Below are positions 2,088 to 56,428 of a DNA stretch of 64,000 bases, in pieces. Every line of letters begins with the position of its first letter. The stretch's first letter is position 1. The position numbers and the translations under genes are program-made. The DNA is from Escherichia phage BYEP02: the sequence record OR757454.1; one strand, written 5' to 3'. Under the pieces are notes generated by a model. That model saw nothing but the letters and a program-made list of their open reading frames with translations, was not told the origin of the DNA and ran no database searches.

Positions 2088-2096
2088 AATTAATTT

Positions 2097-2183: not shown

Positions 2184-2187
2184 ATTT

Positions 2188-2262: not shown

Positions 2263-2376
2263 AATTTGTGACAACTGTCACATTAATATCTACTTGACGC
2301 GATTATAGGGGTTGAACTGATCACTCTTCTCTTAATTTCGTGTGAAGACATCTTGATTGTTGGAGTAGGTATTAAT

Positions 2377-2452
2377 GTGGCCGTAGTTCAGTTGGTAGAA
2401 CTCGAGATTGTGATTCTCGTAGTCATGGGTTCGACTCCCATCGGTCACCCCA
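2377..2452 (+). tRNA. tRNA-His (anticodon GTG)
   Basis: Acceptor gtggccg/cggtcac, anticodon loop ttGTGat. Confidence 0.75.
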
Positions 2453-2456
2453 ATTA

Positions 2457-2532
2457 CGGGGCATAGCTCAGAAGGAAGAGCAAGGACCTTCTAAGTCCTA
2501 GGTCGTAGGTTCGATCCCTACTGCCTCGACCA
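2457..2532 (+). tRNA. tRNA-Arg (anticodon TCT)
   Basis: Acceptor cggggca/tgcctcg, anticodon loop ctTCTaa. Confidence 0.8.
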
Positions 2533-3160: not shown

Positions 3161-3210
3161 CAAACACTTGCCTTAGCAGGTGGAACCCCGACAAGGTTGC
3201 CGCAAGGCTT

Positions 3211-3239
3211 AGCCCCGACCGAAAGGTTGGGGCTTTTTG
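3211..3239 (+). terminator. intrinsic terminator, 10-bp stem, GAAA loop, T-tract
   Basis: agccccgacc-gaaa-ggttggggct followed by ttttt. Confidence 0.7.
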
Positions 3240-3291
3240 GTATAACACTTGCCTTAGCAGGTGGAACCCCGACAAGGTTGCCGCAAGGCTT

Positions 3292-3320
3292 AGCCCCAGC
3301 CGAAAGGTTGGGGCTTTTTA
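3292..3320 (+). terminator. intrinsic terminator (second repeat unit)
   Basis: agccccagcc-gaaa-ggttggggct followed by tttt. Confidence 0.7.
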
Positions 3321-3321
3321 G

Positions 3322-3329
3322 TATAAATA
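3322..3329 (+). promoter_or_regulatory. T4-type late promoter TATAAATA
   Basis: Exact TATAAATA ~37 nt upstream of ATG 3366. Confidence 0.55.
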
Positions 3330-3875: not shown

Positions 3876-4007
3876 GTATCTAGGCCTTTCCGGGCCTCTC
3901 TAGGCATCATTTAGTTTATACCCTTTATAATATATTATCCTACCTTTTAATTGCCCCTCCTGACCCTAGAATTCCCTAAAACTTTTTAAAAATTTTTTCA
4001 CAAAACT

Positions 4008-4037
4008 GTTTACATCCCTGTTCTTCCATGGTACTAT
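4008..4037 (+). promoter_or_regulatory. T4 early-type promoter (GTTTAC, 18 nt, TACTAT)
   Basis: Upstream A/T tract, -35 gtttac, -10 tactat; same architecture recurs across the window. Confidence 0.6.
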
Positions 4038-4080
4038 ACAACTATCAACTACTGATACAGAAAATAACTTGGAGAATGAA

Positions 4081-4421
4081 ATGGATAATTACGGCGAACT
4101 GTTCAACTTCTTTATGAAATGCGTTTCAGAAGATTTCGGTCGTACAGTGAATGATATTAAAGTCATCGGTCCTGACCATCCAACTTCTTTATGAAATGTG
4201 TTTCAGAAGATTTTGGTCGTACAGTGAATGATATTAAAGTTATCGGTCCTGATCATCCGATGTTTGAAACTTACGCAGTAATGGGTAATGAAGATGGTCA
4301 GTGGTATACTGTAAAGGTTGTGATTAACATGTTCACTGCTGAAGGTTATGTTAAACTGTCTTCTAAAGTTTACCATGATAACGATGAAATCGCAGAAGAA
4401 TATTTCAATAATATGAAATAA
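4081..4421 (+). CDS. hypothetical small protein, frameshifted by a 77-bp duplication
   Basis: ATG 4081; copy 1 gives premature stop; intact sub-ORF 4191-4421. Confidence 0.5.
4104..4257. repeat. 77-bp tandem duplication (4104-4180 / 4181-4257), 4 C/T mismatches
   Basis: Read directly; offset 77. Confidence 0.9.
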
Positions 4422-15930: not shown

Positions 15931-16390
15931 AATTCAGCGACTTTTCACAAAGTGGAAAACCTTCAAAGGCAGATGAATACTTAGGTTTATTAATGGCTGC
16001 ACAAGCTTATTTTCATTCTGCTCACAAAGTGGAAAACCTTCAAAGGCAGATGAATACTTAGGTTTATTAATGGCTGCACAAGCTTATTTTCATTCTGCAC
16101 ATTTTGAAACTAAAAGTTATGCTAGACACAAAGCATACGATTTTATTTTCTCCGAGTTGCCAGATTTGATTGATAAATTTGGTGAGCAATATTTGGGGTA
16201 TTCTGGTAGAAAATACACACCTTCAATTCCAGATGCTAGTAAACTTCCTACCGACACAATTAAAATGATTGATCGCATACTAGACCAATCTAACAGCATT
16301 TATAAAGAAATGCCTCCAGCCATCCAAAGCACGATAGATGATATTACTGGAATGTTTTACCAGAGTAAGTATCTTCTTTCCCTCGAATAA
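15927..16390 (+). CDS. hypothetical protein, frameshifted by a 77-bp duplication
   Basis: ATGA overlap with rI stop; 129 codons after removing 77 nt. Confidence 0.5.
15946..16099. repeat. 77-bp tandem duplication (15946-16022 / 16023-16099), 0-1 mismatch
   Basis: Read directly. Confidence 0.9.
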
Positions 16391-16395
16391 CGTTA

Positions 16396-16417
16396 GTCTC
16401 CTTCGGGAGACTTTTTT
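16396..16417 (+). terminator. intrinsic terminator, UUCG tetraloop hairpin
   Basis: gtctccttcgggagac followed by tttttt. Confidence 0.7.
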
Positions 16418-16427
16418 CATTTTACCG

Positions 16428-16457
16428 GTTTACTTTCCATTTGAGCTGTGATACTAT
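16428..16457 (+). promoter_or_regulatory. T4 early-type promoter (GTTTAC, 18 nt, TACTAT)
   Basis: Consensus motifs. Confidence 0.55.
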
Positions 16458-16485
16458 ACAACCATCGGATAAAGAGGAGAACATC

Positions 16486-16674
16486 ATGAAAATTGAAGCA
16501 CTCAATCAAGAAGGAAATATCTACGTCATCATTAATGGTGATTTTTTCGTCGACATGGATGAAGTTACTAGTGAAGAACTTGTAGAACTTCTTAAGAAAC
16601 GTTATAATATGTGTGATGAAGTTGCAACTCACATGGCGTGTGCAATATTCTCTCTTTCATATGTGGTGGAATAA
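16486..16674 (+). CDS. hypothetical small protein
   Basis: ATG with GAGGAG RBS. Confidence 0.45.
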
Positions 16675-16877
16675 TGATTAGTATCGAACAAGCTGATAAA
16701 ATTAAGGAATTGGTAGCTTTAATTCGTAAAGCAGACGAGGAGCGCATTAACTTTGCTTGGTATTCATCGGGTATTTCGAATAAAGGCATTAAAGACTTTG
16801 AAACTAAAGTGGATAATGCTTTAGAAGCGTTAGATATGTTTCTTGATGAAATTATCGATCATAATACGAGAGTTTAA
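16674..16877 (+). CDS. small protein, member of a 4-gene local paralogue set
   Basis: N-terminus [23 protein letters not shown] resembles those of the ORFs at 16880, 17064 and 17402. Confidence 0.45.
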   Translation: MISIEQADKIKELVALIRKADEERINFAWYSSGISNKGIKDFETKVDNALEALDMFLDEIIDHNTRV

Positions 16878-16879
16878 GT

Positions 16880-17074
16880 ATGCTAACACGCGAACAGTTT
16901 GAAAAAATCATTAAATTAGCACGTGATATTGAAATAGATTCATATCAATTAGCAGTTGAGCATTGTGAAGGATATTCATACGACGGTATAGAAGCAGCTA
17001 AAAAGGATTTGGATAAATCTAAAGCTAAGTTAGTTCAATATCTTGAAATGATTAGGTGGAATAATGAAAACTGA
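16880..17074 (+). CDS. small protein, paralogue set member
   Basis: MLTREQFEKIIKLARDIEIDSYQLA. Confidence 0.45.
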   Translation: MLTREQFEKIIKLARDIEIDSYQLAVEHCEGYSYDGIEAAKKDLDKSKAKLVQYLEMIRWNNEN

Positions 17075-17237
17075 AAAGCAGATGTTTTTAATGAAACTAA
17101 TTGAAGAATATGCTAATGCAGTTTCTGACTATGAGTATTCTGCTCGGGAAAGAGGTACAGCTTTCGCAAAAGAAGAAATGAAAATCATGGTTGATGCTCA
17201 CACAAAGCTTCAGAATTTTATTGAAAACGTCATTTAA
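17064..17237 (+). CDS. small protein, paralogue set member
   Basis: MKTEKQMFLMKLIEEYANAVSDYEYS; not in supplied ORF track. Confidence 0.4.
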   Translation: MKTEKQMFLMKLIEEYANAVSDYEYSARERGTAFAKEEMKIMVDAHTKLQNFIENVI

Positions 17238-17239
17238 TG

Positions 17240-17269
17240 GTTTACAAGTTGGCAAGGTTATGGTATAGT
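17240..17269 (+). promoter_or_regulatory. T4 early-type promoter (GTTTAC, 18 nt, TATAGT)
   Basis: Consensus motifs. Confidence 0.5.
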
Positions 17270-17401
17270 AATCTTGTCAACTGCCAAGGAGAAGAGAATG
17301 AAAGTTTTGTTTGTTGTGTATGTGATGATTCAATATAATTACCCAATGTTTACTTATAATCTGGTGAACAACATTATTGATATTATTCAAAGGAGTATGT
17401 A

Positions 17402-17587
17402 ATGACAAGTGAGCAGGCTTTTAAATTAAGAGAATTAATTGAGACGTATAGTAAAGCTGTTCATACATCAACAATTATTGATGAATCAGCTTTCTCCGGA
17501 CATGCTAACAAGATTAAATACAAAACTCTTATGGAAGAAGCTAAAGTAAATCTTGATTCTTATATTGAAACTTTAATTGGTGAATAA
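17402..17587 (+). CDS. small protein, paralogue set member
   Basis: MTSEQAFKLRELIETYSKAVHTS. Confidence 0.45.
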   Translation: MTSEQAFKLRELIETYSKAVHTSTIIDESAFSGHANKIKYKTLMEEAKVNLDSYIETLIGE

Positions 17588-17588
17588 T

Positions 17589-17855
17589 ATGAGTTTTCCT
17601 AAATTAGAAGTAGGTGACTTAGTTTTAACAAAATTATGGAATGGTGTTCAATCAGTAGAAATCTGCCAATATCGTGGAGCAACAGGTAATTTGATGTACA
17701 CGATTTATAATCCAGAAATTTTGTTAGAGTGTCATTTGGAACGCTTTATAAAAGACACCGATAGTATGCCTTATAGTGTATCAATTGTACGTAAATCTGA
17801 TACAAAGGAATACTCTAAAATTTTAGAACAAATCAGCGCAAATAAAAAGGATTAA
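17589..17855 (+). CDS. hypothetical protein (88 aa)
   Basis: ATG after upstream stop. Confidence 0.45.
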   Translation: MSFPKLEVGDLVLTKLWNGVQSVEICQYRGATGNLMYTIYNPEILLECHLERFIKDTDSMPYSVSIVRKSDTKEYSKILEQISANKKD

Positions 17856-17856
17856 T

Positions 17857-18467
17857 ATGAAACGATTAGTATTAGAAGTTAGTTCATTTTTTGGTGAATT
17901 GGCTATAGAAAAAGTAAATAATATGTATCGTTTGACGCAAGAAGACGATATGCTATATTTTACGCCTAGCGAAATTATTCATTTAACCCAAATTGAAAAA
18001 CCTTACACTGATAAAATTGTAAGCATTAATGATGAGCATAAAATTCATTTCTATTCTTTATGCCCAGGATTTAACATTGAAAGCGAGTCAATATGCTTAT
18101 CAGTTATCCATTGGGATAGTTTTATAGCTAAGATTAAATATTTTTATTATTCTAATGAAAGAAAACATAGTTTAAAATGGCTCAAAAATTGCAATGCTAT
18201 TATTACTAACGCTTGCAATCAGAATGATGAAACTGTTTTAAACATAGTTTAAAATGGCTCAAAAATTGCAATGCTATTATTACTAACGCTTGCAATCAGA
18301 ATGATGAAACTGTTTTAAATGTATCAAAATGTTATGAAGATGGAGATGTCTTAACTATTCGTCAAATTGATGATTTTCGAGCGCATATTGTCACATTTAC
18401 CAAAGACGAAGCTATTGCGTTAAAGACTTATCTTGATTCTGTCATTCCAACTATGATTTCAAAGTGA
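17857..18467 (+). CDS. hypothetical protein, frameshifted by a 77-bp duplication
   Basis: 178 codons after removing 77 nt. Confidence 0.5.
18164..18317. repeat. 77-bp tandem duplication (18164-18240 / 18241-18317), identical
   Basis: Read directly. Confidence 0.9.
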
Positions 18468-20554: not shown

Positions 20555-20579
20555 GGGAGCCCGAAGGCTCCCTTTTTTT
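20555..20579 (+). terminator. intrinsic terminator hairpin with T-tract
   Basis: gggagcccgaaggctccc followed by ttttttt. Confidence 0.7.
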
Positions 20580-20603
20580 ATTTCAAAAATTTTTCACAAA
20601 ACT

Positions 20604-20633
20604 GTTTACAAGCATAAAGCTTTATGGTACTAT
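20604..20633 (+). promoter_or_regulatory. T4 early-type promoter (GTTTAC, 18 nt, TACTAT)
   Basis: Consensus motifs with upstream A/T tract. Confidence 0.6.
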
Positions 20634-20669
20634 ACAACTATCAAAACAAACACTTAAACGGAAAACAAA

Positions 20670-20818
20670 ATGAAAATTACACCAATTGAAGTAAAAAAGT
20701 TGATTGATACAGAAGAAATTTCAGAGTGTTTTGAAAGTTTCTTAGAAGACGCAACTGAAGATAACGCGGTTTATCTCGCCCAGAAAATTATCGAAACTTA
20801 TTTGGAGAAGAATCAATG
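20670..20818 (+). CDS. hypothetical small acidic protein (49 aa)
   Basis: ATG downstream of early promoter; not in supplied ORF track. Confidence 0.35.
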
Positions 20819-22555: not shown

Positions 22556-22858
22556 ATGTTATACTCAAAGGCTCGTGAAATTTACGAAACTAAAATTAAA
22601 GACGCGGTTCATCAGTTCGCAACGACAATGCGTTGGACAAATGACTGGGAATACTCCAAGAATCATAAGAAGCCCTTGGTGACAAGAAAGGCTCATGTGT
22701 TAGTGTTAATAGACCGTGAGCAGATTAAAGCCCGAGAAGCCCTCCAGAATCATAAAAAGGCTGCCTTTGAATGGTTTATGGATAACACTGCTCCTGAGAC
22801 TAAGAAAGCAGTGAGTGCGTGGTTCAGTGGAAAAAATTGTGAAAGAAGTTTCTTTTAG
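22556..22858 (+). CDS. hypothetical protein (100 aa)
   Basis: ATG after GGAGG RBS. Confidence 0.45.
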   Translation: MLYSKAREIYETKIKDAVHQFATTMRWTNDWEYSKNHKKPLVTRKAHVLVLIDREQIKAREALQNHKKAAFEWFMDNTAPETKKAVSAWFSGKNCERSFF

Positions 22859-22860
22859 TT

Positions 22861-22890
22861 GTTTACAAGACCGTTCCTCTGTGGTACTAT
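22861..22890 (+). promoter_or_regulatory. T4 early-type promoter (GTTTAC, 18 nt, TACTAT)
   Basis: Consensus motifs. Confidence 0.55.
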
Positions 22891-22918
22891 ACAACTATCA
22901 ACTACGGAGGAACACAAA

Positions 22919-23233
22919 ATGAACGCTAAAGATATTTTCAACTTGGTAAATTACAACGATGGTAAATTTAAATCTGAAGCACAAAGCAAGTTCTTTAATG
23001 ACATCTCAATCGGAGGTGAAATCACTGTTGATGGAGGACAAATTTACAAATCCCGTTGGAATTGGATCGTTATTATTGATGAGATCGGTATTGTAGAAAT
23101 TTACAAAAATACGAATAAAAATCGTACATTGCACTGGTCTCGTGATACTAACGAACAGTACAAAAAGGATAAAGCATCTAAATTATCTCGTGTAACTCAA
23201 GAAGATATTGAGTTCATCAAGAAGATATTTTAA
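22919..23233 (+). CDS. hypothetical protein (104 aa)
   Basis: ATG with GGAGG RBS downstream of promoter. Confidence 0.5.
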   Translation: MNAKDIFNLVNYNDGKFKSEAQSKFFNDISIGGEITVDGGQIYKSRWNWIVIIDEIGIVEIYKNTNKNRTLHWSRDTNEQYKKDKASKLSRVTQEDIEFIKKIF

Positions 23234-23912: not shown

Positions 23913-24884
23913 ATGTCAGCAGTAATTAATAATGTCAATGCAGTAATTAAATCTTTAGTTAATAAAAAAATGATGAATGAATGGACTGTATTTCGTCGTG
24001 GAGAGCCAGATAAATTTTTTCATAGATTTAACCCAACTTTGGATTTGAATGTTATCGACAAAGATGTTCATGCTGAAATTTTAGATAAGTTTAAAGTTGA
24101 TATTGGATTTGGATTAGAAAAACATCTACAGCGAACAAATGGGTCTGGAATGAGTTTATCTAATCGCATTATGAAAGCCCTTAATAAAATTGGAGCATTG
24201 TCTCGTATTAAGCGAACAAACGGGTCTGGAATGGGTTTATCTAATCGCATTATGAAAGCCCTTAATAAAATTGGAGCATTGTCTCGTATTAATGCAAGTG
24301 AAATTCTTCGCAATTATAATAAAGGCTATGATCTTTACGGTCGACTAATGCCGAAATTATCATTTGACCAAATGATCGCAGATTTGTGGGAAAATCAACG
24401 ACGATTATTAGCATTAGGCGCTCGATTAGCTAAAGGTCTAGATAAACAAATGATTTTTAAGACCAATAATACAGAAGACCTTAAATGCTTTAAATTTAGT
24501 ATTCGCGGCGATGATTATTACGTCAGAGCTCGCTCTACAGATTATGTTAATATGGGGCATCATCTCTGTTTAGCTTTTGAAGTTTTAAAAGAAGCCGGAA
24601 CATTAGAATATGTGTCTGGTGCTAAATGCCCGATTGGTTCAAGTTGTATTTTAATTTATCGCCCGGATGAATCCAGTTTAACTAAATTGCCTACAAAACC
24701 TGTACCAGTTCGCAGTAATGAAAAACATTCTGAGCAAATTGATTATTTTAATAAGCAAATTGAAGAGCTGAATATTTCTATTCAACAGTATGACGATGAA
24801 ATTTTCAGACTATCTGGATTGAGTAGTAAAGCTAAATCTGAGCGTGAAAAATTAATTAAAATTGTTGATTTACTTAAATCTTAA
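23913..24884 (+). CDS. hypothetical protein A of a 4-gene tandem set; contains an in-frame 27-aa tandem repeat; C-terminal coiled coil
   Basis: ORF intact through 81-bp repeat; C-terminus heptad-like. Confidence 0.55.
   Translation: MSAVINNVNAVIKSLVNKKMMNEWTVFRRGEPDKFFHRFNPTLDLNVIDKDVHAEILDKFKVDIGFGLEKHLQRTNGSGMSLSNRIMKALNKIGALSRIKRTNGSGMGLSNRIMKALNKIGALSRINASEILRNYNKGYDLYGRLMPKLSFDQMIADLWENQRRLLALGARLAKGLDKQMIFKTNNTEDLKCFKFSIRGDDYYVRARSTDYVNMGHHLCLAFEVLKEAGTLEYVSGAKCPIGSSCILIYRPDESSLTKLPTKPVPVRSNEKHSEQIDYFNKQIEELNISIQQYDDEIFRLSGLSSKAKSEREKLIKIVDLLKS
24131..24292. repeat. 81-bp in-frame tandem repeat (24131-24211 / 24212-24292), 3 mismatches
   Basis: Encodes RTNGSGMSLSNRIMKALNKIGALSRIK / RTNGSGMGLSNRIMKALNKIGALSRIN. 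Confidence 0.9.
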
Positions 24885-29146: not shown

Positions 29147-29317
29147 ATGATTTACGATATTAGTGTATCAAGAACTCCGTCAATGGTTACTATTCCAGCC
29201 GAAGAACTAGATCGTCTTCAGAAAATTGAAGAACTTCTTTGGGAAATTGAATCTGATTTGCCATCAGGACTAGAATCCTGGATTGATTATGAAGAACTTA
29301 ATAAGCTTCGGGGTTAA
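29147..29317 (+). CDS. hypothetical acidic protein (56 aa)
   Basis: ATG 3 nt after upstream stop. Confidence 0.4.
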   Translation: MIYDISVSRTPSMVTIPAEELDRLQKIEELLWEIESDLPSGLESWIDYEELNKLRG

Positions 29318-29395
29318 AGGAAATTGAATCTGATTTGCCATCAGGACTAGAATCCTGGATTGATTATGAAGAACTTAATAAGCTTCGGGGTTAAA
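29242..29395. repeat. 77-bp tandem duplication (29242-29318 / 29319-29395), identical
   Basis: Read directly. Confidence 0.9.
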
Positions 29396-29516
29396 CCTTG
29401 GTGGGCGGTTAGATGGGAAACTGTAGAGCCAGAGCCGGAAGAACCGGTTTACACTGATGAAGAAACAGTATATAATGAACCAACGATAAATGACTTAATT
29501 GATATGGAGATGGGAC

Positions 29517-30002
29517 ATGATTACAGTAGATAAGTGGTTTAGAATTAATCGTGCTGATACAGGGCTGTGTAATTACTGGCCGGAACTTAGTGCAGGTACT
29601 GTCTTTAAAGTTCGTGAACTTGCAAAAGAATGTGAAGATGATATAGAGCCTGATACTGGAATTATTGAAATTGAACTTTCCGACGGAAAGATTATTAACA
29701 TCTATGATAAGCCAATTACGTATTGGTGCTTGTGGAATACTGAATCAGTAGAAAATGGCGAAATTGAAGAAGTTGTAGAGCGAACTAATCAAGTTGTTCA
29801 GAAGCCTAAAGCCGATTTTCAAGGTGAACGTATTTCATACGCATTAGCTAAATTAGCTGCACAAGAAAATAACGATGGTTATGAAGGAAATTTGATGCAA
29901 GCTGCGGCAGAATATATTGAATGGCTTGAAACTCAAATTTCTTTTTCTGACCAAAAGATTCGGCAATATAAGCGATTGAATCAAATGTTTTACAATACTT
30001 GA
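29517..30002 (+). CDS. pin: Pin-like protein (protease inhibitor), by position between nrdC and 49
   Basis: 161 aa ORF in the T4 pin position; identity not confirmed by motif. Confidence 0.55.
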   Translation: MITVDKWFRINRADTGLCNYWPELSAGTVFKVRELAKECEDDIEPDTGIIEIELSDGKIINIYDKPITYWCLWNTESVENGEIEEVVERTNQVVQKPKADFQGERISYALAKLAAQENNDGYEGNLMQAAAEYIEWLETQISFSDQKIRQYKRLNQMFYNT

Positions 30003-30086
30003 AAATAATGCTGCGGCAGAATATATTGAATGGCTTGAAACTCAAATTTCTTTTTCTGACCGAGCGTTTTAATACTTGAAAATAAT
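29901..30086. repeat. imperfect direct repeat: 109-bp unit (29901-30009) then 77-bp variant unit (30010-30086) sharing a 52-bp identical core
   Basis: Second unit looks like the first with a ~32-bp internal deletion. Confidence 0.8.
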
Positions 30087-30121
30087 AAATACCCTTATCT
30101 ATTTAAGGTAAGGGTTTTATT

Positions 30122-30672
30122 ATGTTATTGACTGGCAAATTATACAAAGAAGAAAAACAGAAATTTTATGATGCACAAAACGGTAAATGCTTAATTTGCC
30201 AACGAGAACTAAATCCTGATGTTCAAGCTAATCACCTTGACCATGACCATGAATTAAATGGACCGAAAGCTGGAAAGGTGCGTGGATTGCTCTGTAATCT
30301 TTGCAATGCTGCGGAAGGTCAAATGAAGCATAAATTTAATCGTTCTGGCTTAAAGGGACAAGGTGTTGATTATCTTGAATGGTTAGAAAATTTACTTACT
30401 TATTTAAAATCCGATTACACCCAAAATAATATTCACCCTAACTTTGTTGGAGATAAATCAAAGGAATTTTCTCGTTTAGGAAAAGAGGAAATGATGGCTG
30501 AGATGCTTCAAAGAGGATTTGAATATAATGAATCTGACACGAATTTTCTCGTTTAGGAAAAGAGGAAATGATGGCCGAGATGCTTCAAAGAGGATTTGAA
30601 TATAATGAATCTGACACAAAAACACAGTTAATAGCTTCATTCAAGAAGCAGCTTAGAAAGAGTTTAAAATGA
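30122..30672 (+). CDS. 49: endonuclease VII (Holliday-junction resolvase), frameshifted by a 77-bp duplication
   Basis: Translation MLLTGKLYKEEKQKFYDAQNGKCLICQREL... matches T4 gp49; 157 aa after removing 77 nt. Confidence 0.9.
30464..30617. repeat. 77-bp tandem duplication (30464-30540 / 30541-30617), 1 mismatch, inside gene 49
   Basis: Read directly. Confidence 0.9.
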
Positions 30673-37224: not shown

Positions 37225-38427
37225 ATGAAAGTATGTATTTTTATGGCTCGAGGTCTTGAAGGTTGTGGTGTAACTAAATTTTCTCTTGAGCAACGTGATT
37301 GGTTTATTAAGAATGGTCATGAAGTAACTTTGGTTTATGCTAAAGATAAATCATTTACTCGTACAAGTTCTCATGACCACAAATCATTTTCAATTCCAGT
37401 TATTTTAGCTAAAGAATACGATAAAGCACTTAAGCTGGTAAATGATTGTGATATTCTAATTATTAATTCTGTTCCTGCTACTTCCGTTCAAGAAGCCACG
37501 ATTAATAACTATAAAAAACTTTTAGATAATATTAAACCTTCTATTCGTGTTGTAGTTTATCAGCATGATCATTCTGTTCTTTCTTTGCGTCGAAATTTGG
37601 GATTAGAAGAAACTGTTCGTCGAGCTGATGTTATTTTTAGCCATTCTGATAATGGTGACTTTAATAAAGTTTTGATGAAAGAATGGTATCCGGAAACTGT
37701 TTCTCTGTTTGATGATATTGAAGAAGCACCGACCGTATATAACTTTCAGCCTCCTATGGATATTGCGAAAGTTCGATCAACCTACTGGAAAGATGTTTCT
37801 GAAATTAACATGAATATCAATCGTTGGATTGGTCGTACGACTACATGGAAAGGTTTTTACCAGATGTTTGATTTTCACGAAAAATTCTTAAAACCTGCTG
37901 GTAAATCCACTGTAATGGAAGGTCTTGAACGTTCCCCTGCTTTTATTGCAATTAAGGAAAAAGGTATTCCGTATGAATATTACGGTAATCGTGAGATCGA
38001 TAAAATGAATCTCACGCCGAATCAACCGGCACAAATCCTAGATTGTTATATTAATAGTGAAATGCTTGAACGAATGAGTAAATCTGGCTTTGGATATCAG
38101 TTGAGTAAACTTAACCAGAAATACTTACAACGCTCACTAGAATATACTCATCTTGAATTAGGTGCTTGCGGTACAATTCCTGTTTTCTGGAAATCTACTG
38201 GCGAAAATTTAAAATTCCGTGTTGATAATACTCCTTTGACCTCGCATGATAGCGGTATCATTTGGTTTGATGAAAATGACATGGAATCAACATTCGAGCG
38301 TATTAAAGAACTGTCATCTGACCGAGCTCTTTATGACCGTGAGCGAGAAAAAGCATATGAATTTTTGTATCAGCATCAAGATTCAAGCTTCTGCTTTAAA
38401 GAACAGTTTGACATTATTACAAAATAA
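37225..38427 (+). CDS. a-gt: DNA alpha-glucosyltransferase
   Basis: 400 aa; translation MKVCIFMARGLEGCGVTKFSLEQRDWF... matches T4 alpha-gt. Confidence 0.9.
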   Translation: MKVCIFMARGLEGCGVTKFSLEQRDWFIKNGHEVTLVYAKDKSFTRTSSHDHKSFSIPVILAKEYDKALKLVNDCDILIINSVPATSVQEATINNYKKLLDNIKPSIRVVVYQHDHSVLSLRRNLGLEETVRRADVIFSHSDNGDFNKVLMKEWYPETVSLFDDIEEAPTVYNFQPPMDIAKVRSTYWKDVSEINMNINRWIGRTTTWKGFYQMFDFHEKFLKPAGKSTVMEGLERSPAFIAIKEKGIPYEYYGNREIDKMNLTPNQPAQILDCYINSEMLERMSKSGFGYQLSKLNQKYLQRSLEYTHLELGACGTIPVFWKSTGENLKFRVDNTPLTSHDSGIIWFDENDMESTFERIKELSSDRALYDREREKAYEFLYQHQDSSFCFKEQFDIITK

Positions 38428-38445
38428 AGGGCTTCGGCCCTTTAG
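38428..38445 (+). terminator. intrinsic terminator, UUCG tetraloop
   Basis: agggcttcggccct followed by tt. Confidence 0.6.
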
Positions 38446-38466
38446 CTTTATACGGAGTTTGATATA

Positions 38467-38607
38467 ATGATATTTCTTGGATATGTGATACTTTTTCTTG
38501 CATTTTATCTATTCACTAGAGCATGTTGGATTGGGTTCTTTAGCACTCCAGATGGATTTATTTCAATAATTTTATTTTGCATTTCAATGACGGTTCTTGA
38601 TATATGA
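38467..38607 (+). CDS. possible small membrane protein (46 aa)
   Basis: Hydrophobic ORF overlapping gene 47 start; not in supplied ORF track. Confidence 0.3.
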   Translation: MIFLGYVILFLAFYLFTRACWIGFFSTPDGFISIILFCISMTVLDI

Positions 38608-39623
38608 AAATTTTAAATTTAGGTGATTGGCATTTAGGCGTTAAAGCTGATGATGAGTGGATTCGCGGTATTCAAATTGATGGAATTAAGCAAGCGATAG
38701 AATATTCTAAGAAAAACGGAATTACTGTATGGATTCAATATGGTGATATTTTTGATGTGCGAAAAGCGATCACGCATAAAACTATGGAGTTTGCTCGCGA
38801 AATAGTTCAAATGCTTGATGACGTTGGAATCACATTACATACTATTGTAGGAAATCACGATCTCCACTATAAAAATGTAATGCATCCAAATGCTTCTACT
38901 GAGCTTTTGGCTAAATACCCTAATGTTAAAGTATATGATAAGCCTACTACAGTAGATTTTGACGGATGTTTGATTGATTTAATTCCTTGGATGTGTGAAG
39001 AAAATACCGGTGAAATTCTTGAACATATTAAAACTTCATCTGCTTCTTTTTGTGTCGGTCACTGGGAACTGAATGGATTTTATTTTTATAAAGGAATGAA
39101 ATCTCACGGTCTTGAACCTGATTTCCTTAAGACTTACAAAGAAGTGTGGTCTGGTCACTTCCATACTATCTCTGAGGCTGCTAACGTTAGATATATTGGG
39201 ACACCATGGACACTAACTGCAGGTGACGAGAATGACCCTCGCGGGTTCTGGATGTTTGATACAGAAACAGAACGAATGGAATTTATTCCAAACAACACTA
39301 CCTGGCATCGTCGAATTCAATATCCATTTAAGGGAAAAATTGACTATAAAGATTTTACAAATCTATCAGTACGTGTTATAGTAACTGAGGTAGACAAAAA
39401 TCTGACGAAGTTCGAATCTGAACTAGAAAAAGTTGTGCATTCATTACGAGTTGTGTCAAAGATTGATAACTCTGTCGAGTCAGATGATAGTGAAGAAGTT
39501 GAAGTTCAATCTCTTCAGACGTTGATGGAAGAATACATTAATGCAATTCCAGACATCACTGATTCTGACCGCGAAGCACTTATTCAATATGCAAATCAGT
39601 TATATGTAGAGGCAACACAATGA
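38604..39623 (+). CDS. 47: recombination nuclease gp47 (Mre11-like)
   Basis: 339 aa; phosphoesterase motifs LGDWH and GNHD. Confidence 0.9.
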   Translation: MKILNLGDWHLGVKADDEWIRGIQIDGIKQAIEYSKKNGITVWIQYGDIFDVRKAITHKTMEFAREIVQMLDDVGITLHTIVGNHDLHYKNVMHPNASTELLAKYPNVKVYDKPTTVDFDGCLIDLIPWMCEENTGEILEHIKTSSASFCVGHWELNGFYFYKGMKSHGLEPDFLKTYKEVWSGHFHTISEAANVRYIGTPWTLTAGDENDPRGFWMFDTETERMEFIPNNTTWHRRIQYPFKGKIDYKDFTNLSVRVIVTEVDKNLTKFESELEKVVHSLRVVSKIDNSVESDDSEEVEVQSLQTLMEEYINAIPDITDSDREALIQYANQLYVEATQ

Positions 39624-39883
39624 CTTTTGATGAATTTAAAAATGTTATGATGAGTCAGCATTTTGAATGCGAAGTAAAAGATGATATTGGGCATAAAGAA
39701 ATTATTGAATACTGGTTTGAACCACTAGAGGTTGAAGATAATTGTATTAAAAAGGTCACAGTCTGCACTGACTGGGCTGTATCTTTTAACTTCAACATTT
39801 TAGATAATGACACACCTAAATCATTACAAGATATGGCTGTATCTTGTATTAAGGATGCATACTGTGAAGTTTTCGACATTTGA
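39620..39883 (+). CDS. hypothetical protein (87 aa)
   Basis: ATGA overlap with gene 47 stop. Confidence 0.5.
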   Translation: MTFDEFKNVMMSQHFECEVKDDIGHKEIIEYWFEPLEVEDNCIKKVTVCTDWAVSFNFNILDNDTPKSLQDMAVSCIKDAYCEVFDI

Positions 39884-40070
39884 CATTAACGATGAATTCA
39901 TAGCAAATATTGAATACACCGAAGAAGATTCTAGATATGTTGGAATAATTTATATCACATCAAAAGCAGCACAAGGTGTTGTTTGCATGGCTGAATTTGA
40001 TGAATACTTTTTAGATTATGATGATATGATAGAATGGTCTAAAAGATACATTAAAAGGAATCTTTTGTGA
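39855..40070 (+). CDS. hypothetical protein (71 aa); start uncertain (ATG 39855 or GTG 39864)
   Basis: ORF ending at gene 46 start. Confidence 0.4.
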   Translation: MHTVKFSTFDINDEFIANIEYTEEDSRYVGIIYITSKAAQGVVCMAEFDEYFLDYDDMIEWSKRYIKRNLL

Positions 40071-41826
40071 AGAATTTTAAACTTAACCGAGTTAGGTATC
40101 AAAATATAATGTCAGTAGGTGGAAATCCTATTGACATTCAACTAGATAAGGTTCAAAAAACTCTTATTACTGGACGAAATGGCGGTGGTAAGTCTACTAT
40201 GCTAGAATTGACATTCAATTAGATAAGGTTCAAAAAACTCTTATTACTGGACGAAATGGCGGTGGTAAGTCTACTATGTTAGAAGCCATCACATTCGGGC
40301 TTTTTGGCAAGCCATTCCGTGATGTAAAGAAAGGCCAATTAATAAACAGTACAAATAAGAAAGAACTTTTAGTTGAACTGTGGATGGAATATGACGAGAA
40401 AAAGTACTATATCAAAAGAGGACAAAAACCAAACGTTTTCGAAATCACCGTTAACGGTACACGTCTTAATGAATCTGCCAGCAGTAAAGATTTCCAAGCA
40501 GAATTTGAACAGCTTATCGGAATGTCATATGCCAGTTTCAAGCAGATTGTTGTCCTTGGTACAGCAGGGTATACCCCTTTCATGGGTTTGTCGACCCCTG
40601 CGCGAAGAAAGCTTGTGGAAGACCTGCTCGAGGTAGGAACATTAGCTGAAATGGATAAGCTTAATAAAGCACTAATACGTGAATTAAATTCACAAAACCA
40701 AGTGCTTGATGTTAAAAAAGATAGTATTATCCAGCAAATTAAAATATATAATGATAACGTTGAACGCCAGAAAAAATTAACTGGTGATAACCTTACTCGT
40801 CTACAGAATATGTATGATGATTTAGCAAAAGAAGCTAGAACGCTAAAATCGGAAATAGAAGAAGCTAATGAAAGATTAGTTAATATTGTTTTGGATGAAG
40901 ACCCGACTGATGCATTTAATAAAATCGGTCAAGAAGCATTTTTAATTAAATCAAAAATTGACTCGTATAATAAAGTCATTAATATGTATCACGAAGGTGG
41001 ATTATGTCCAACCTGTTTGTCACAATTAAGTTCTGGTGATAAAGTTGTTTCTAAAATTAAAGATAAAGTTTCTGAATGTACGCATTCATTTGAACAGCTT
41101 TCAACACATCGTGATAATTTAAAAGTTCTTGTTGACGAATACCGAGATAATATTAAAACCCAGCAGACGTTGGCAAATGATATTCGCAATAAAAAGCAAT
41201 CTCTAATCACGACTGTAGATAAAGCTAAAAAAGTTAAAGCAGCTATAGAAAAAGCATCATCTGAGTTTATTGACCATGCTGATGAAATAGCACTGCTTCA
41301 AGAAGAACTTGATAAAATTGTTAAGACAAAAACTAATTTAGTAATGGAAAAATACCACAGAGGAATTTTGACTGATATGCTCAAAGATTCTGGTATTAAA
41401 GGTGCTATTATTAAAAAGTACATTCCATTATTTAATAAGCAGATTAACCATTATCTTAAAATAATGGAAGCGGATTATGTGTTTACATTAGATGAAGAAT
41501 TTAATGAGACAATTAAATCCCGTGGTCGTGAAGATTTTAGTTATGCTTCATTTAGTGAAGGTGAAAAAGCACGAATTGATATTGCTCTTTTATTTACTTG
41601 GCGTGATATTGCTTCTATTGTATCTGGTGTTAGTATTAGTACATTAATTCTTGATGAAGTGTTTGATGGGTCATTTGATGCCGAAGGTATTAAAGGTGTA
41701 GCTAATATTATAAATTCAATGAAAAATACTAATGTTTTTATAATTTCGCATAAAGACCATGACCCGCAAGAATATGGTCAGCATCTTCAAATGAAGAAAG
41801 TTGGTCGATTTACTGCAATGGTTTAA
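40067..41826 (+). CDS. 46: recombination ATPase gp46 (Rad50/SbcC-like), frameshifted by a 77-bp duplication
   Basis: Walker A GRNGGGKST (duplicated by the repeat); 560 aa after removing 77 nt; GTG start. Confidence 0.9.
40131..40284. repeat. 77-bp tandem duplication (40131-40207 / 40208-40284), 2 mismatches, inside gene 46
   Basis: Read directly. Confidence 0.9.
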
Positions 41827-42079: not shown

Positions 42080-42546
42080 ATGACTAAAATTACTGTGAAT
42101 TATACTGTTGATGTAAAAGATATTCAGCCAAAACACGTGCGTTCTGATTCAAATCCACAAAACCAAAATAAAATTCGTCGAGCATGGGTTTTGTCTCTTT
42201 CTGATAACGCAATGGAAGTTATTCAGAACAAAATTAAATCTGCACCTGCTCGTCATGCGTATTATGAAGCTATCGATCGTGAAGTAAGTAATAAATGGAT
42301 TGAACTAATGCGCAAACATACTACAGAATCCCTAAACGCCGGTGCTAAATTTATTATGACTTCATGTGGTGAACGCCTTGAAGATGACGCAAACATACTA
42401 CAGAATCCCTAAACGCCGGTGCTAAATTTATTATGACTTCATGTGGTGAACGTCTTGAAGATGATTATTGCGGTAATGCAGATGAACGTCTAATTGTTGC
42501 TGCTCAAATTGTTGCGGAAACAATTGCGGCTGATTTTAATCGTTAA
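42080..42546 (+). CDS. rpbA: RNA polymerase binding protein RpbA, frameshifted by a 77-bp duplication
   Basis: 129 aa after removing 77 nt; sits between 46 and 45 as in T4. Confidence 0.7.
42313..42466. repeat. 77-bp tandem duplication (42313-42389 / 42390-42466), 1-2 mismatches
   Basis: Read directly. Confidence 0.9.
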
Positions 42547-42699
42547 TTGCTTTATTAAATTAGTTATAAAATTAAATCTCATTTGAATTGAAGGAAATTA
42601 CATGAAACTGTCTAAAGATACAATTGCTTTATTAAATTAGTTATAAAATTAAATCTCATTTGAATTGAAGGAAATTACATGAAACTGTCTAAAGATACA
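42546..42699. repeat. 77-bp tandem duplication (42546-42622 / 42623-42699), identical; duplicates the gene 45 promoter, RBS and first 7 codons
   Basis: Read directly. Confidence 0.9.
42624..42649 (+). promoter_or_regulatory. possible MotA-dependent middle promoter (TTGCTTTA box plus TATAAA)
   Basis: ttgctttattaaattagttataaaat ~30 nt upstream of gene 45 ATG. Confidence 0.4.
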
Positions 42700-48274: not shown

Positions 48275-48357
48275 CATACAAGTAATATAAATCTATACTT
48301 AGGAAAAATAGATGATTCTAGGTCCTGTAAATTCATTAAAAATTTTTTCACAAAACT

Positions 48358-48387
48358 GTTTACAAGACTGTTCCTCTGTGGTACTAT
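48358..48387 (+). promoter_or_regulatory. T4 early-type promoter (GTTTAC, 18 nt, TACTAT)
   Basis: Consensus motifs with A/T upstream element. Confidence 0.6.
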
Positions 48388-48421
48388 ACAATTATCAACT
48401 AATACGGATTTGGAGAATAAA

Positions 48422-48658
48422 ATGAAAATTGTTATGGGATGCTTAGCAGTTTGTTTAGTTGCATTAGCAGCAGTTCCATTTGTTAGTGTTGAAAATGATA
48501 CTCAACCTGTGATTGAATCTAGCACCGTTATTCACACTAATGGTAAAATATCAGTTAAAATTGATGATAATCTTCATGTGAATACTAATGGAACGCTGGG
48601 TGTTCAATTAGGTAATATCTGTGTAAGCACTACTGGAGTAATTACTACTTGTATTTGA
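48422..48658 (+). CDS. small secreted protein (78 aa)
   Basis: Signal-peptide-like MKIVMGCLAVCLVALAAVPFVSV. Confidence 0.5.
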   Translation: MKIVMGCLAVCLVALAAVPFVSVENDTQPVIESSTVIHTNGKISVKIDDNLHVNTNGTLGVQLGNICVSTTGVITTCI

Positions 48659-51195: not shown

Positions 51196-52377
51196 ATGTC
51201 TATTGCAGATTTAAAATCCCGTTTGATTAAAGCTTCCACTTCTAAAATGACTGCTGAACTGACTACATCTAAATTCTTTAATGAAAAGGATGTAATTCGT
51301 ACAAAAATTCCAATGCTTAATATTGCTATTTCTGGTGCGATTGATGGTGGTATGCAGTCTGGTTTAACTATTTTCGCAGGGCCTTCTAAACACTTTAAAT
51401 CAAATATGTCTTTGACTATGGTTGCGGCGTATTTGAACAAATATCCTGACGCGGTTTGTCTATTCTATGATAGCGAATTTGGTATTACTCCAGCTTATTT
51501 GCGATCCATGGGAGTTGACCCGGAACGAGTAATTCATACGCCGATTCAGTCAGTTGAACAACTGAAAATTGATATGGTGAACCAGCTTGAAGCTATTGAG
51601 CGTGGTGAAAAGGTTATTGTATTCATCGACTCAATCGGTAATATGGCTTCTAAGAAAGAAACGGAAGATGCCTTGAATGAAAAATCTGTGGCAGATATGA
51701 CTCGTGCTAAATCACTGAAGTCATTATTCCGTATTGTTACTCCTTATTTTAGCATTAAAAATATTCCGTGCGTTGCGGTTAACCATACAATTGAAACAAT
51801 TGAAATGTTTAGTAAAACCGTGATGACAGGTGGTACAGGCGTAATGTATTCGGCTGATACTGTATTCATTATCGGTAAGCGTCAGATTAAAGATGGTTCT
51901 GATCTTCAGGGGTATCAATTTGTTCTAAATGTAGAAAAATCTCGTACCGTTAAAGAAAAAAGTAAATTCTTTATTGATGTTAAATTTGACGGTGGTATCG
52001 ATCCTTATTCTGGATTGTTAGATATGGCTCTAGAATTAGGATTCGTGGTAAAACCTAAAAATGGCTGGTATGCTCGTGAATTTCTTGATGAAGAAACCGG
52101 CGAGATGATTCGCGAAGAAAAATCTTGGCGTGCAAAAGATACCAACTGCACTACATTCTGGGGTCCTTTATTTAAGCATCAACCATTCCGAGATGCTATT
52201 AAACGCGCTTATCAGTTAGGTGCTATTGATAGTAATGAAATTGTTGAAGCTGAAGTTGATGAATTGATTAACTCAAAGGTTGAAAAATTTAAATCTCCAG
52301 AAAGTAAAAGTAAATCAGCAGCTGATTTAGAAACTGACCTAGATCAGTTAAGTGATATGGAAGAATTTAATGAATAA
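51196..52377 (+). CDS. uvsX: UvsX recombinase (RecA-like)
   Basis: Walker A GPSKHFKS; translation matches T4 UvsX along its length. Confidence 0.95.
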   Translation: MSIADLKSRLIKASTSKMTAELTTSKFFNEKDVIRTKIPMLNIAISGAIDGGMQSGLTIFAGPSKHFKSNMSLTMVAAYLNKYPDAVCLFYDSEFGITPAYLRSMGVDPERVIHTPIQSVEQLKIDMVNQLEAIERGEKVIVFIDSIGNMASKKETEDALNEKSVADMTRAKSLKSLFRIVTPYFSIKNIPCVAVNHTIETIEMFSKTVMTGGTGVMYSADTVFIIGKRQIKDGSDLQGYQFVLNVEKSRTVKEKSKFFIDVKFDGGIDPYSGLLDMALELGFVVKPKNGWYAREFLDEETGEMIREEKSWRAKDTNCTTFWGPLFKHQPFRDAIKRAYQLGAIDSNEIVEAEVDELINSKVEKFKSPESKSKSAADLETDLDQLSDMEEFNE

Positions 52378-52714
52378 AGATGATTTAGATTTAGATCTAG
52401 AAATTATCGACGAATCCCCCTCTTCGGAGGGGGAAGAAGAAAGAAAAGAACGTCTTTTTAATGAATCTCTTAAGATAATTAAATCTGCCATGGAAAATGT
52501 TATCCAGGAGATTGTCATTAAACTAGAAGATGGTTCTACACACATTGTGTATGTGACAAAATTAGATTGGGTTGATGGAAAAGTCGTAATGGACTTTGCT
52601 GTTCTTGACCAAGAAAGAAAAGCTGAGTTAGCTCCTCATGTAGAAAAATGTATTACAATGCAACTACAAGATGCATTTAACAAAAGGTCAAAGAAAAAAT
52701 TTAAATTCTTTTAA
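52370..52714 (+). CDS. 40: gp40 head-vertex assembly chaperone
   Basis: 114 aa acidic protein between uvsX and 41. Confidence 0.75.
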   Translation: MNKDDLDLDLEIIDESPSSEGEEERKERLFNESLKIIKSAMENVIQEIVIKLEDGSTHIVYVTKLDWVDGKVVMDFAVLDQERKAELAPHVEKCITMQLQDAFNKRSKKKFKFF

Positions 52715-52723
52715 GGAGTAAGT

Positions 52724-54228
52724 GTGGTAGAAATTATTCTTTCTCATCTCATATTTGATCAAGCTTATTTTTCAAAAGTTTGGCCATATATGGATTCAGA
52801 ATATTTTGAAAGTGGTCCAGCTAAAAATACATTCAAATTAATTAAATCTCATGTTAATGAGTACCATAGCGTTCCATCCATTAATGCGTTAAATGTTGCA
52901 TTAGAAAATAGTTCATTTACTGAAACAGAATATTCTGGTGTAAAAACACTTATTTCAAAACTAACCGATTCTCCGGAAGACCACAGCTGGTTAGTAAAAG
53001 AAACAGAAAAATATGTTCAGCAAAGGGCGATGTTTAATGCTACGTCTAAAATAATTGAAATTCAAACCAATGCTGAGCTTCCTCCAGAAAAACGAAATAA
53101 GAAAATGCCAGATGTAGGTGCTATTCCTGACATCATGCGCCAAGCATTGTCAATTTCATTTGATAGCTACGTCGGTCATGATTGGATGGATGACTACGAA
53201 GCACGTTGGCTATCTTATATGAATAAAGCTCGTAAGGTTCCATTTAAACTCAAAATTCTAAATAAAATTACTAAAGGCGGAGCTGAAACTGGAACACTGA
53301 ACGTTTTAATGGCTGGTGTTAACGTTGGTAAGTCATTAGGATTGTGTTCATTGGCAGCAGATTATTTGCAGCTCGGACACAATGTTCTTTACATTTCCAT
53401 GGAAATGGCAGAAGAAGTCTGTGCTAAGCGTATTGACGCTAATATGCTCGATGTTTCTCTTGATGACATTGATGATGGGCATATTTCTTACGCTGAATAT
53501 AAAGGAAAAATGGAAAAATGGCGTGAGAAATCTACTCTTGGACGTTTAATCGTTAAACAGTATCCTACTGGTGGAGCAGACGCTAATACATTTCGATCGC
53601 TTTTAAACGAATTAAAGCTCAAGAAGAATTTTGTTCCAACAATCATTATTGTTGACTATCTAGGTATTTGTAAATCTTGTCGCATCAGAGTTTATTCAGA
53701 AAATAGTTACACAACTGTTAAAGCTATCGCAGAGGAATTGCGTGCTCTGGCTGTTGAAACCGAAACTGTTCTTTGGACCGCAGCACAAGTTGGTAAGCAA
53801 GCTTGGGATTCTTCTGATGTTAACATGAGCGATATTGCAGAATCTGCCGGTCTTCCGCAGCACAGGTTGGTAAACAAGCTTGGGATTCTTCTGATGTTAA
53901 CATGAGCGATATTGCAGAATCTGCCGGTCTTCCAGCAACAGCCGATTTTATGCTTGCGGTCATTGAAACCGAGGAGTTAGCAGCTGCTGAACAACAACTC
54001 ATTAAGCAAATCAAATCACGATATGGTGATAAGAATAAATGGAATAAGTTTTTGATGGGTGTTCAAAAAGGAAATCAAAAATGGGTAGAAATTGAGCAAG
54101 ATTCTACTCCAACTGAAGTTAACGAAGTAGCAGGTTCACAGCAGATTCAGGCTGAGCAGAATCGCTATCAAAGAAACGAATCTACTCGAGCCCAGTTAGA
54201 TGCTTTGGCAAATGAATTAAAATTTTAG
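52724..54228 (+). CDS. 41: replicative helicase gp41 (DnaB-like), frameshifted by a 77-bp duplication
   Basis: Walker A GVNVGKS; 475 aa after removing 77 nt; GTG start. Confidence 0.9.
53780..53933. repeat. 77-bp tandem duplication (53780-53856 / 53857-53933), 2 mismatches, inside gene 41
   Basis: Read directly. Confidence 0.9.
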
Positions 54229-56307: not shown

Positions 56308-56428
56308 AAATGTCATCAATACCTTGGATTGATAATGAGTTTGCATACCGTAAAAAAGAGGAATCTAAAGAAAAAGAAGAGTAAAAATGTCATCAATACC
56401 TTGGATTGATAATGAGTTTGCATACCGT
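56275..56428. repeat. 77-bp tandem duplication (56275-56351 / 56352-56428), identical; duplicates the gene 61 RBS and start
   Basis: Read directly. Confidence 0.9.

What the first reader, a model, noticed from the sequence alone, without database searches (positions are those of the whole stretch)
29901..30086. Variant repeat at the pin 3' end: a 77-bp unit that is a deletion variant of the preceding 109 bp
A 52-bp identical core is followed in unit 1 by 57 bp and in unit 2 by 25 bp that match only its last 21. Unit 2 is again exactly 77 bp long but is not a copy of the 77 bp before it. It looks like an alternative allele of this locus, which supports the idea that the duplicated units come from a second, related genome.
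Basis: seen in the sequence. Interest (0 to 1): 0.45.

Follow-up and report, generated by a model that had tools for sequence, protein, structure and literature searches.

The report
Untrimmed 77-base join, not a repeat
The "variant repeat" after the phage pin gene is one of 34 places where overlapping sequence pieces from at least two related T4-like phages were joined without trimming their overlap, so it is a construction artefact and not a feature of any phage genome.

Summary
A 109-nt unit (29901-30009) is followed by a 77-nt unit (30010-30086). They share an exact 52-nt core and an exact 16-nt tail and differ by a 32-nt indel.

The window is a T4-like (Tequatrovirus) genome stretch built from 35 consecutive pieces. 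Each piece re-starts about 77 nt before the previous one ends. Of the 34 junctions, 30 are 77/77, one is 77/78, two are 81/81, and this one is 109/77. No other tandem period between 20 and 300 nt occurs.

At this junction the two overlapping ends carry different natural alleles of the pin 3' end:
- Long allele: as in phage slur03, giving a 161-aa PinA.
- Short allele: as in phage 132, SP21535 and BP32, ending ...SFSDRAF*.

Published genomes carry only one of these alleles. The junctions split 11 of 37 tested genes into two reading frames, including genes 41-44 and 46, which are essential in T4. Deleting one copy at every junction restores all of them.

The feature is an artefact of joining. 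The value 77 points to an untrimmed k-mer overlap, but the software cannot be identified. The pieces also drift away from slur03 towards their 3' ends, and this remains unexplained.

The parts
29517..30002 (+). pin (PinA, inhibitor of host Lon protease), long allele, complete, 161 aa, stop TGA at 30000-30002
   Evidence: Pfam PF10465 Inhibitor_I24, E=2.3e-48, residues 4-141. Full-length tblastn match to slur03 pin. Annotated as inhibitor of host Lon protease in slur03.
29319..30009 (+). Left piece (segment 19 of 35), slur03-like, ending with the long pin allele
   Evidence: 99.4% to slur03/slur08/slur14, 4 differences, all 117-130 nt from its end.
29901..30009 (+). Unit 1: the last 109 nt of the left piece, homologous to the first 77 nt of the right piece
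   Evidence: Encodes ...AAAEYIEWLETQISFSDQKIRQYKRLNQMFYNT*.
30010..30086 (+). Unit 2: the first 77 nt of the right piece, the untrimmed overlap. It carries the short natural allele of the pin 3' end, with stop TAA at 30070-30072.
   Evidence: Translates to AAAEYIEWLETQISFSDRAF*. With the 38 nt downstream, the 115-nt query is 100% identical to phage 132 and four other phages.
29901..29952 (+). 52-nt core, copy 1 (copy 2 at 30010-30061)
   Evidence: 100% identical. 0.00 matches expected by chance.
29994..30009 (+). 16-nt tail, copy 1 (copy 2 at 30071-30086)
   Evidence: Family D9, 100% identical, spacing 77.
30010..30540 (+). Right piece (segment 20 of 35), from a different lineage: short pin allele, terminator, and most of gene 49
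   Evidence: Best hits ECO07P1/REP4 at 99.4% in one alignment piece. 91.7% to slur03 and 98.1% to phage 132.
30091..30115 (+). Terminator-like hairpin plus T-run between pin and gene 49, present once, just after unit 2
   Evidence: A terminator is annotated at this place in phages GiZh and Kha5h.
30122..30672 (+). Gene 49 (endonuclease VII), split into two frames by the next junction (77-nt copies at 30464-30540 and 30541-30617)
   Evidence: Pfam Endonuclease_7 and Endonuc-dimeris. tblastn gives residues 1-140 in frame 2 and 115-153 in frame 1. Restored by deleting one copy.
29242..29395 (+). Preceding junction: exact 77-nt overlap (29242-29318 = 29319-29395)

Best explanation
The 109/77-nt structure is a joining artefact. 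The window was put together from 35 consecutive sequence pieces. Each piece begins about 77 nt before the previous one ends, and the overlaps were left in. At 30009|30010 the left piece ends in the long natural allele of the pin 3' end. The right piece begins, 77 nt back in its own coordinates, in the short natural allele, which lacks 32 nt. The untrimmed overlap therefore appears as a 109-nt unit followed by a 77-nt 'deletion variant'. The pieces derive from at least two related Tequatrovirus genomes: one almost identical to phage slur03 and one or more that differ by 1.5-3.5%. Shown here: the fixed overlap length, the two alleles existing separately in nature, the different relatives of the two pieces, the broken essential genes, and their repair by trimming. 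Inferred: that 77 is the k-mer size of a de Bruijn graph assembler (77 is the largest default k of SPAdes for ~150-nt reads, from my own knowledge), and that graph pieces or contigs from a mixed-strain sample were chained without trimming.
For: (1) Fixed length: a scan of all periods from 20 to 300 nt finds only period 77 (30 sites) and 81 (2 sites), and TRF agrees. Suffix-prefix alignment of all 34 junctions gives 30 at 77/77, one at 77/78, two at 81/81, and this one at 109/77.
(2) BLAST against slur03 shows each piece re-starting about 77 nt back in reference coordinates.
(3) No published genome has the duplication. Among more than 700 matching phage records the best ones align in 4 pieces over 1301 nt, spanning 1146 nt of the reference (1301 minus 2x77, within 1 nt), and in 14 pieces over 23 kb.
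(4) The junction 32-mer is absent from IMG/VR, JGI metagenome contigs and GTDB genomes.
(5) Both alleles exist separately in nature.
(6) The left and right pieces have different nearest relatives.
(7) 11 of 37 tested genes are split into two frames exactly at junctions, with about 25 residues encoded twice. They include genes 41, 42, 43, 44 and 46, which are essential in T4 (established T4 genetics).
(8) Deleting the right copy at every junction restores 37 of 37 genes. Deleting the left copy restores 36 of 37; the exception is pin, which becomes the natural short allele.
(9) The differences between pieces are natural alleles, not errors: 308 synonymous against 49 non-synonymous, and 297 of 357 at codon position 3.
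(10) SPAdes contigs carry overlapping sequence at their ends that has to be removed when they are joined (PMC5481147).
Against: In a de Bruijn graph, neighbouring pieces share an exact k-mer. Here only 10 of 34 overlaps are exact and the rest have 1-8 mismatches or an indel, so plain untrimmed graph overlaps do not explain everything. Two overlaps are 81 nt, not 77. Differences from slur03 pile up towards the 3' end of pieces: 26 pieces against 3, sign test p=1.5e-5, with decile counts 14, 30, 39, 25, 44, 66, 71, 73, 123, 183. That points to a one-directional walk that re-seeds 77 nt back, not to a symmetric assembler. No reads, graph or record name are available, so the software and the value of k are not verified.
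Confidence: 0.9

Rival explanations
1. A real tandem heteroduplication. Unequal or illegitimate recombination between two co-infecting T4-like phages left both pin 3'-end alleles side by side in one viable genome.
For: T4-like phages recombine readily in mixed infection (general knowledge). This particular insertion lies after the pin stop codon and before the terminator, so on its own it breaks no gene.
Against: It shares the 77-nt signature of 33 other junctions in the same window, 11 of which frameshift genes including essential replication genes. It is absent from more than 700 related genomes and from three contig collections. Trimming restores all tested genes.
Confidence: 0.02
2. A single-strain draft with exact 77-nt untrimmed overlaps was later polished, or had its consensus re-called, with reads from a mixed or different population. 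Polishing altered one copy of each duplicate, here inserting or deleting 32 nt.
For: It would reconcile a de Bruijn origin (exact overlaps) with the 24 non-identical overlaps. The differences are natural alleles.
Against: The allele differences are not confined to the duplicated 77 nt. The whole right piece 30010-30540 differs from slur03 (18 differences), and its best relatives differ from those of the left piece. Random polishing does not predict the strong 5'-to-3' gradient within pieces.
Confidence: 0.08
3. The sequence is not a conventional assembly. It is the output of a one-directional, seeded walk: a reference-guided or greedy k-mer extension, a path sampled through a multi-genome graph, or a generative model restarted from 77-nt seeds. 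Each seed was left in the output.
For: In 26 of 34 junctions the 200 nt after the right copy are identical to slur03, whereas the 200 nt before the left copy are identical in only 5 of 34. Pieces start slur03-identical for up to 2.7 kb and then drift (sign test). The drifted parts match no single published phage better than 98.5-98.7%. The window and its artefact-specific ORF products are in none of the searched collections.
Against: There is no direct evidence about provenance. Six pieces, including the one that starts with unit 2, do not start slur03-identical, so the seed genome would have to be an unpublished slur03 relative. The two 81-nt overlaps do not fit a fixed 77-nt seed. This rival is a variant of the artefact explanation, not a biological alternative.
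Confidence: 0.15

Closest known systems
Overlapping k-mer-length sequence at the ends of de Bruijn graph contigs (e.g. SPAdes), which must be trimmed when contigs are chained
   Same: The overlap length is fixed and equals a common default k (77). It recurs at every join and is independent of gene structure. Removing one copy restores colinearity with references and intact reading frames. The Unicycler paper states that such overlaps are created by SPAdes and must be removed (PMC5481147).
   Different: Graph overlaps are exact. Here 24 of 34 differ between the two copies, two are 81 nt, and this one differs by a 32-nt indel. The pieces also show a one-directional drift in strain identity.
Strain-chimeric contigs from assemblies of mixed, closely related phages
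   Same: Pieces alternate between slur03-identical sequence and sequence 1.5-3.5% diverged that carries mostly synonymous, natural alleles. The pieces flanking the finding have different nearest relatives.
   Different: Ordinary chimeric contigs switch strain seamlessly in shared sequence. Here the switch back to the slur03-like strain coincides with a duplicated overlap.
Natural length polymorphism of the T4-type pin (PinA) C-terminus
   Same: Unit 1 and unit 2 are the two natural alleles: a 486-nt gene (161 aa) in slur03 and a 447-nt gene (148 aa) in phage 132.
   Different: Natural genomes carry one allele. Only this window carries both in tandem.

Membership tests
Untrimmed k-mer overlap at contig or graph-piece joins (assembly artefact) | The same fixed overlap length at many joins, unrelated to gene boundaries | tested here: met
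   30 of 34 junctions are 77/77. Only periods 77 and 81 occur among all periods from 20 to 300 nt. Junctions fall inside genes, between genes and inside the tRNA array.
Untrimmed k-mer overlap at contig or graph-piece joins (assembly artefact) | Removing one copy restores colinearity with related genomes and intact reading frames | tested here: met
   37 of 37 genes are full-length after deleting the right copies, against 26 of 37 before. Reference coordinates step back about 77 nt at each join.
Untrimmed k-mer overlap at contig or graph-piece joins (assembly artefact) | The two copies are identical, because neighbours in a de Bruijn graph share an exact k-mer | tested here: not met
   Only 10 of 34 overlaps are exact. 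Twenty have 1-8 mismatches, one is 77/78, two are 81/81, and this one is 109/77. Strict membership therefore fails. It works like an untrimmed overlap, but the joins were made by position or homology, or were altered afterwards.
Untrimmed k-mer overlap at contig or graph-piece joins (assembly artefact) | No sequencing read spans the join, and the assembler was run with k=77 | not testable with these tools
   No reads, graph or provenance are available. The window is not in any searched collection.
Biological tandem duplication in a phage genome | Compatible with a viable genome, with essential genes intact | tested here: not met
   Sister junctions with the same signature frameshift genes 41, 42, 43, 44, 46, 49 and nrdD.
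Biological tandem duplication in a phage genome | Seen in independent related genomes or contigs | tested here: not met
   No contiguous match among more than 700 matching phage records. The junction 32-mer is absent from IMG/VR, JGI metagenomes and GTDB genomes.
PinA peptidase inhibitor (Pfam PF10465, Inhibitor_I24) | Profile match above the curated cut-off | tested here: met
   164 bits against a cut-off of 27, residues 4-141. The two alleles diverge only from residue 146, outside the domain.
Natural allelic pair at the pin 3' end | Each allele found alone in separate natural genomes | tested here: met
   The short allele matches 5 phage records at 100% and more than 30 at 99.1%. The long allele is in the slur03 group and in 5 IMG/VR contigs.

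The most novel reading that the evidence does not exclude
The 109+77 arrangement, and possibly the piecewise slur03-to-other-strain drift, records real recombination intermediates or products from a mixed infection by T4-like phages. On this reading the two pin alleles are physically adjacent in some molecules, and the arrangement was not produced purely by software.
Probability: 0.02. Interest if true: 0.45.

Novelty: not a real feature. Interest (0 to 1): 0.06.

Why it matters
It matters only as quality control. As written, the sequence contains 34 false duplications totalling about 2.6 kb. They create false frameshifts or pseudogenes in at least 11 genes, including the DNA polymerase, helicase, clamp loader and endonuclease VII. 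They also create false partial tRNA copies and a strain-chimeric backbone. Any annotation, gene-content comparison, repeat discovery or variant call made on this window would be misled. The only real biology here is already present in public genomes: the pin C-terminus has two natural alleles (161 and 148 aa) that differ downstream of the conserved inhibitor domain.

Tried and rejected
1. I looked for the window's source, hoping to learn the assembler. Exact scans for the junction 32-mer in IMG/VR, JGI metagenome contigs and GTDB genomes found nothing. Exact-product look-ups of two artefact-specific ORFs, the truncated gene 49 and the nrdD fragment, also found nothing. No INPHARED record carries the duplications.

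2. I tested whether the 77 nt is always measured on the right copy, always on the left copy, or in a third reference coordinate system. None fits. The junction at 1885 is 77/78, the one at 30010 is 109/77, and those at 3245 and 24211 are 81/81. A 4-nt indel against slur03 lies 5 nt after the first 81-nt overlap, but nothing comparable lies near the second.

3. I tested whether the drifted 3' parts of pieces equal one known phage. The best matches are only 98.5% (KFS-EC3, CT01, HMD-9) and 98.7% (F13076). The differences from KFS-EC3 are spread evenly. This leaves either an unpublished strain or a fine mosaic, and the question is not resolved.

4. I rejected sequencing error as the source of the differences, because substitutions are 86% synonymous.

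5. I rejected a biological duplication, because essential genes are broken at sister junctions and are repaired by trimming.

6. A scan of IMG/VR for the short allele as an exact 40-mer found nothing. IMG/VR holds few such phages, and the phage record collection did contain it.

Full report
**Observation.** The region was read directly. The sequence at 29901-29952 is identical to 30010-30061 (52 nt), and 29994-30009 is identical to 30071-30086 (16 nt). Unit 1 is therefore 109 nt (29901-30009) and unit 2 is exactly 77 nt (30010-30086). They differ by a 32-nt indel plus one or two substitutions. The 52-mer occurs twice in the window, against 0.00 expected in shuffles.

**Genomic context.** The window is a T4-like (Tequatrovirus) genome stretch.
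- The ORF at 29517-30002 is pin (Pfam Inhibitor_I24, E=2.3e-48).
- A terminator-like hairpin lies at 30091-30115.
- Gene 49, endonuclease VII, starts at 30122, followed by nrdD.
- The closest published genomes are Escherichia phages slur03, slur08 and slur14, at 98.5-98.8%.

**The two units are two natural alleles.** Unit 1 matches the slur03-type 3' end of pin, giving a 161-aa protein ending ...SFSDQKIRQYKRLNQMFYNT*. Unit 2 encodes ...SFSDRAF*. Together with the 38 nt that follow, it is 100% identical to phages 132, SP21535, BP32, F13076 and CJY920, and 99.1% identical to dozens more. In those phages pin is 447 nt. Every reference carries one allele only. The 1301-nt query around the finding spans 1146 nt in the best references, which is two 77-nt units fewer (within 1 nt). 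The alleles diverge from residue 146, downstream of the Pfam domain, which ends at residue 141.

**The finding is one of 34 junctions of the same kind.**
- TRF lists about 32 two-copy tandem arrays of period 77 or 81 across the window.
- An exhaustive scan of periods 20-300 finds only period 77 (30 sites) and period 81 (2 sites).
- BLAST against slur03 resolves the window into 35 consecutive pieces of 210-4101 nt. Each starts about 77 nt before the previous one ends in reference coordinates.
- Suffix-prefix alignment of every junction gives 30 at 77/77 (10 exact, 20 with 1-8 mismatches), one at 77/78, two at 81/81, and 30010 at 109/77.

The finding is simply the one junction where the two overlapping ends differ by a large indel. 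That is why unit 2 is 'again exactly 77 bp' but is not a copy of the preceding 77 nt.

**It cannot be a real genome feature.** tblastn with 37 slur03 proteins shows 11 genes split into two reading frames exactly at a junction, with about 25 residues encoded twice. These are genes 41 (helicase), 42, 43 (DNA polymerase), 44, 46, 49, nrdD, rpbA, nudE, nrdC.10 and nrdC.11. Genes 41-44 and 46 are essential in T4 (established T4 genetics).

Deleting the right copy at each junction restores 37 of 37 genes to a single full-length frame. Deleting the left copy restores 36 of 37. The exception is pin, which then becomes the natural short allele.

No phage record holds any of the duplications. The junction 32-mer is absent from IMG/VR, JGI metagenome contigs and GTDB genomes.

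**The pieces come from more than one related genome.** Identity of each piece to slur03 ranges from 100% (16022-18239, 42388-42621, 56352-59057) down to 96.5%. Of the 612 substitutions against slur03, 357 fall in the 37 listed genes. Of these, 308 are synonymous and 49 non-synonymous, and 297 sit at codon position 3. They are natural alleles, not errors.

At the finding, the left piece 29319-30009 is closest to the slur03 group (99.4%). The right piece 30010-30540 is closest to ECO07P1 and REP4 (99.4%, one alignment piece, short allele). The refinement is that the whole right piece carries the other lineage's alleles, not only the 77 nt.

**Mechanism.** The best-supported explanation is a computational join of overlapping pieces with the overlap left in.

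A fixed 77-nt overlap is what neighbouring contigs of a de Bruijn graph assembler share when k=77. From my own knowledge, 77 is the largest default k of SPAdes for ~150-nt reads. The Unicycler paper states that overlapping sequences at contig ends are created by SPAdes and must be removed (PMC5481147).

That the pieces are graph contigs from a mixed-strain sample is an inference. It is weakened by three facts:
- 24 of 34 overlaps are not exact.
- Two overlaps are 81 nt.
- There is a striking one-directional pattern, described next.

**Unexplained directional pattern.** Differences from slur03 accumulate towards the 3' end of pieces. The decile counts are 14, 30, 39, 25, 44, 66, 71, 73, 123, 183. 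Twenty-six pieces have more differences in their 3' half and 3 have more in their 5' half (p=1.5e-5). The 200 nt after the right copy are slur03-identical at 26 of 34 junctions, but the 200 nt before the left copy are identical at only 5 of 34.

This looks like a left-to-right walk that starts on a slur03-like genome, drifts onto other alleles, stops, and is re-seeded 77 nt back with the seed kept in the output. Junction 30010 is one of six exceptions where the new piece does not start slur03-identical. The seed genome would therefore be an unpublished slur03 relative carrying the short pin allele. The software cannot be identified from the sequence. All these variants are artefacts, not biology.

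**Rivals.**
- A true heteroduplication from recombination between co-infecting phages is not strictly excluded for this one site, because the insertion lies between the pin stop codon and the terminator. The shared 77-nt signature with 33 gene-breaking sister junctions makes it very unlikely (about 2%).
- Later polishing of exact duplicates does not explain why whole pieces differ by lineage, nor the directional gradient.

**Verdict.** The feature is an artefact of how the sequence was joined. Its interest is low except as a warning that this record needs trimming at 34 junctions and is strain-chimeric. The decisive test is read-level support across 30009|30010.

Noticed in passing
window, first base of each right-hand piece: 706, 1675, 1885, 3245, 4181, 6778, 7672, 8536, 10089, 11322, 13505, 16022, 18240, 19740, 22225, 24211, 27007, 29319, 30010, 30541, 31859, 33294, 36972, 40207, 42388, 42622, 43770, 46005, 50106, 53855, 54367, 56352, 59058, 61928: There are 34 untrimmed overlaps in total: 30 at 77/77, one at 77/78, two at 81/81 and one at 109/77. 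Together they add about 2.6 kb of false sequence and split 11 of 37 tested genes. Trimming one copy at each junction restores all of them.
   Followed up: yes
whole window, within each of the 35 pieces: Differences from phage slur03 accumulate towards the 3' end of pieces (26 pieces against 3, p=1.5e-5). Most pieces restart 100% slur03-identical. This suggests a one-directional seeded walk, but the cause is not identified.
   Followed up: partly
window 3164-3325 and 24130-24291: Two overlaps are 81 nt instead of 77, with 3 and 2 mismatches. The second is in frame and repeats 27 residues inside nrdC.6. Why they are 81 nt is unexplained. A 4-nt indel against slur03 lies just after the first.
   Followed up: partly
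window 29952-30002 versus 30061-30072: This is a real natural polymorphism of the PinA C-terminus. The 161-aa allele occurs in the slur03 group and the 148-aa allele in phage 132, SP21535, ECO07P1 and others. They diverge only after residue 145, outside the Inhibitor_I24 domain.
   Followed up: partly
window 1434-2532: The array of 10 tRNA genes matches that of slur03. Two junction duplications inside it (1598-1751 and 1807-1962) add false partial tRNA copies and widen the Gly-Pro and Ser-Thr spacers.
   Followed up: partly
window 3976-4093, 20572-20688, 22840-22943, 48326-48440: Four related intergenic elements of about 100 nt have an A/T-rich upstream part, GTTTACA, and TGGTACTATACAAC. They look like T4-type early promoters and are ordinary for this phage group.
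   Followed up: partly
window about 45385 (slur03 141321-141539): A 219-nt stretch of slur03 containing ORF 43.1 is absent here, with no 77-nt signature. It looks like a natural indel between regA and gene 43.
   Followed up: no
window 52207-53854 and 38395-40206: The drifted 3' parts of pieces match no published phage better than 98.5-98.7%. The second lineage, or lineages, is therefore unpublished, or these parts are a fine mosaic.
   Followed up: partly
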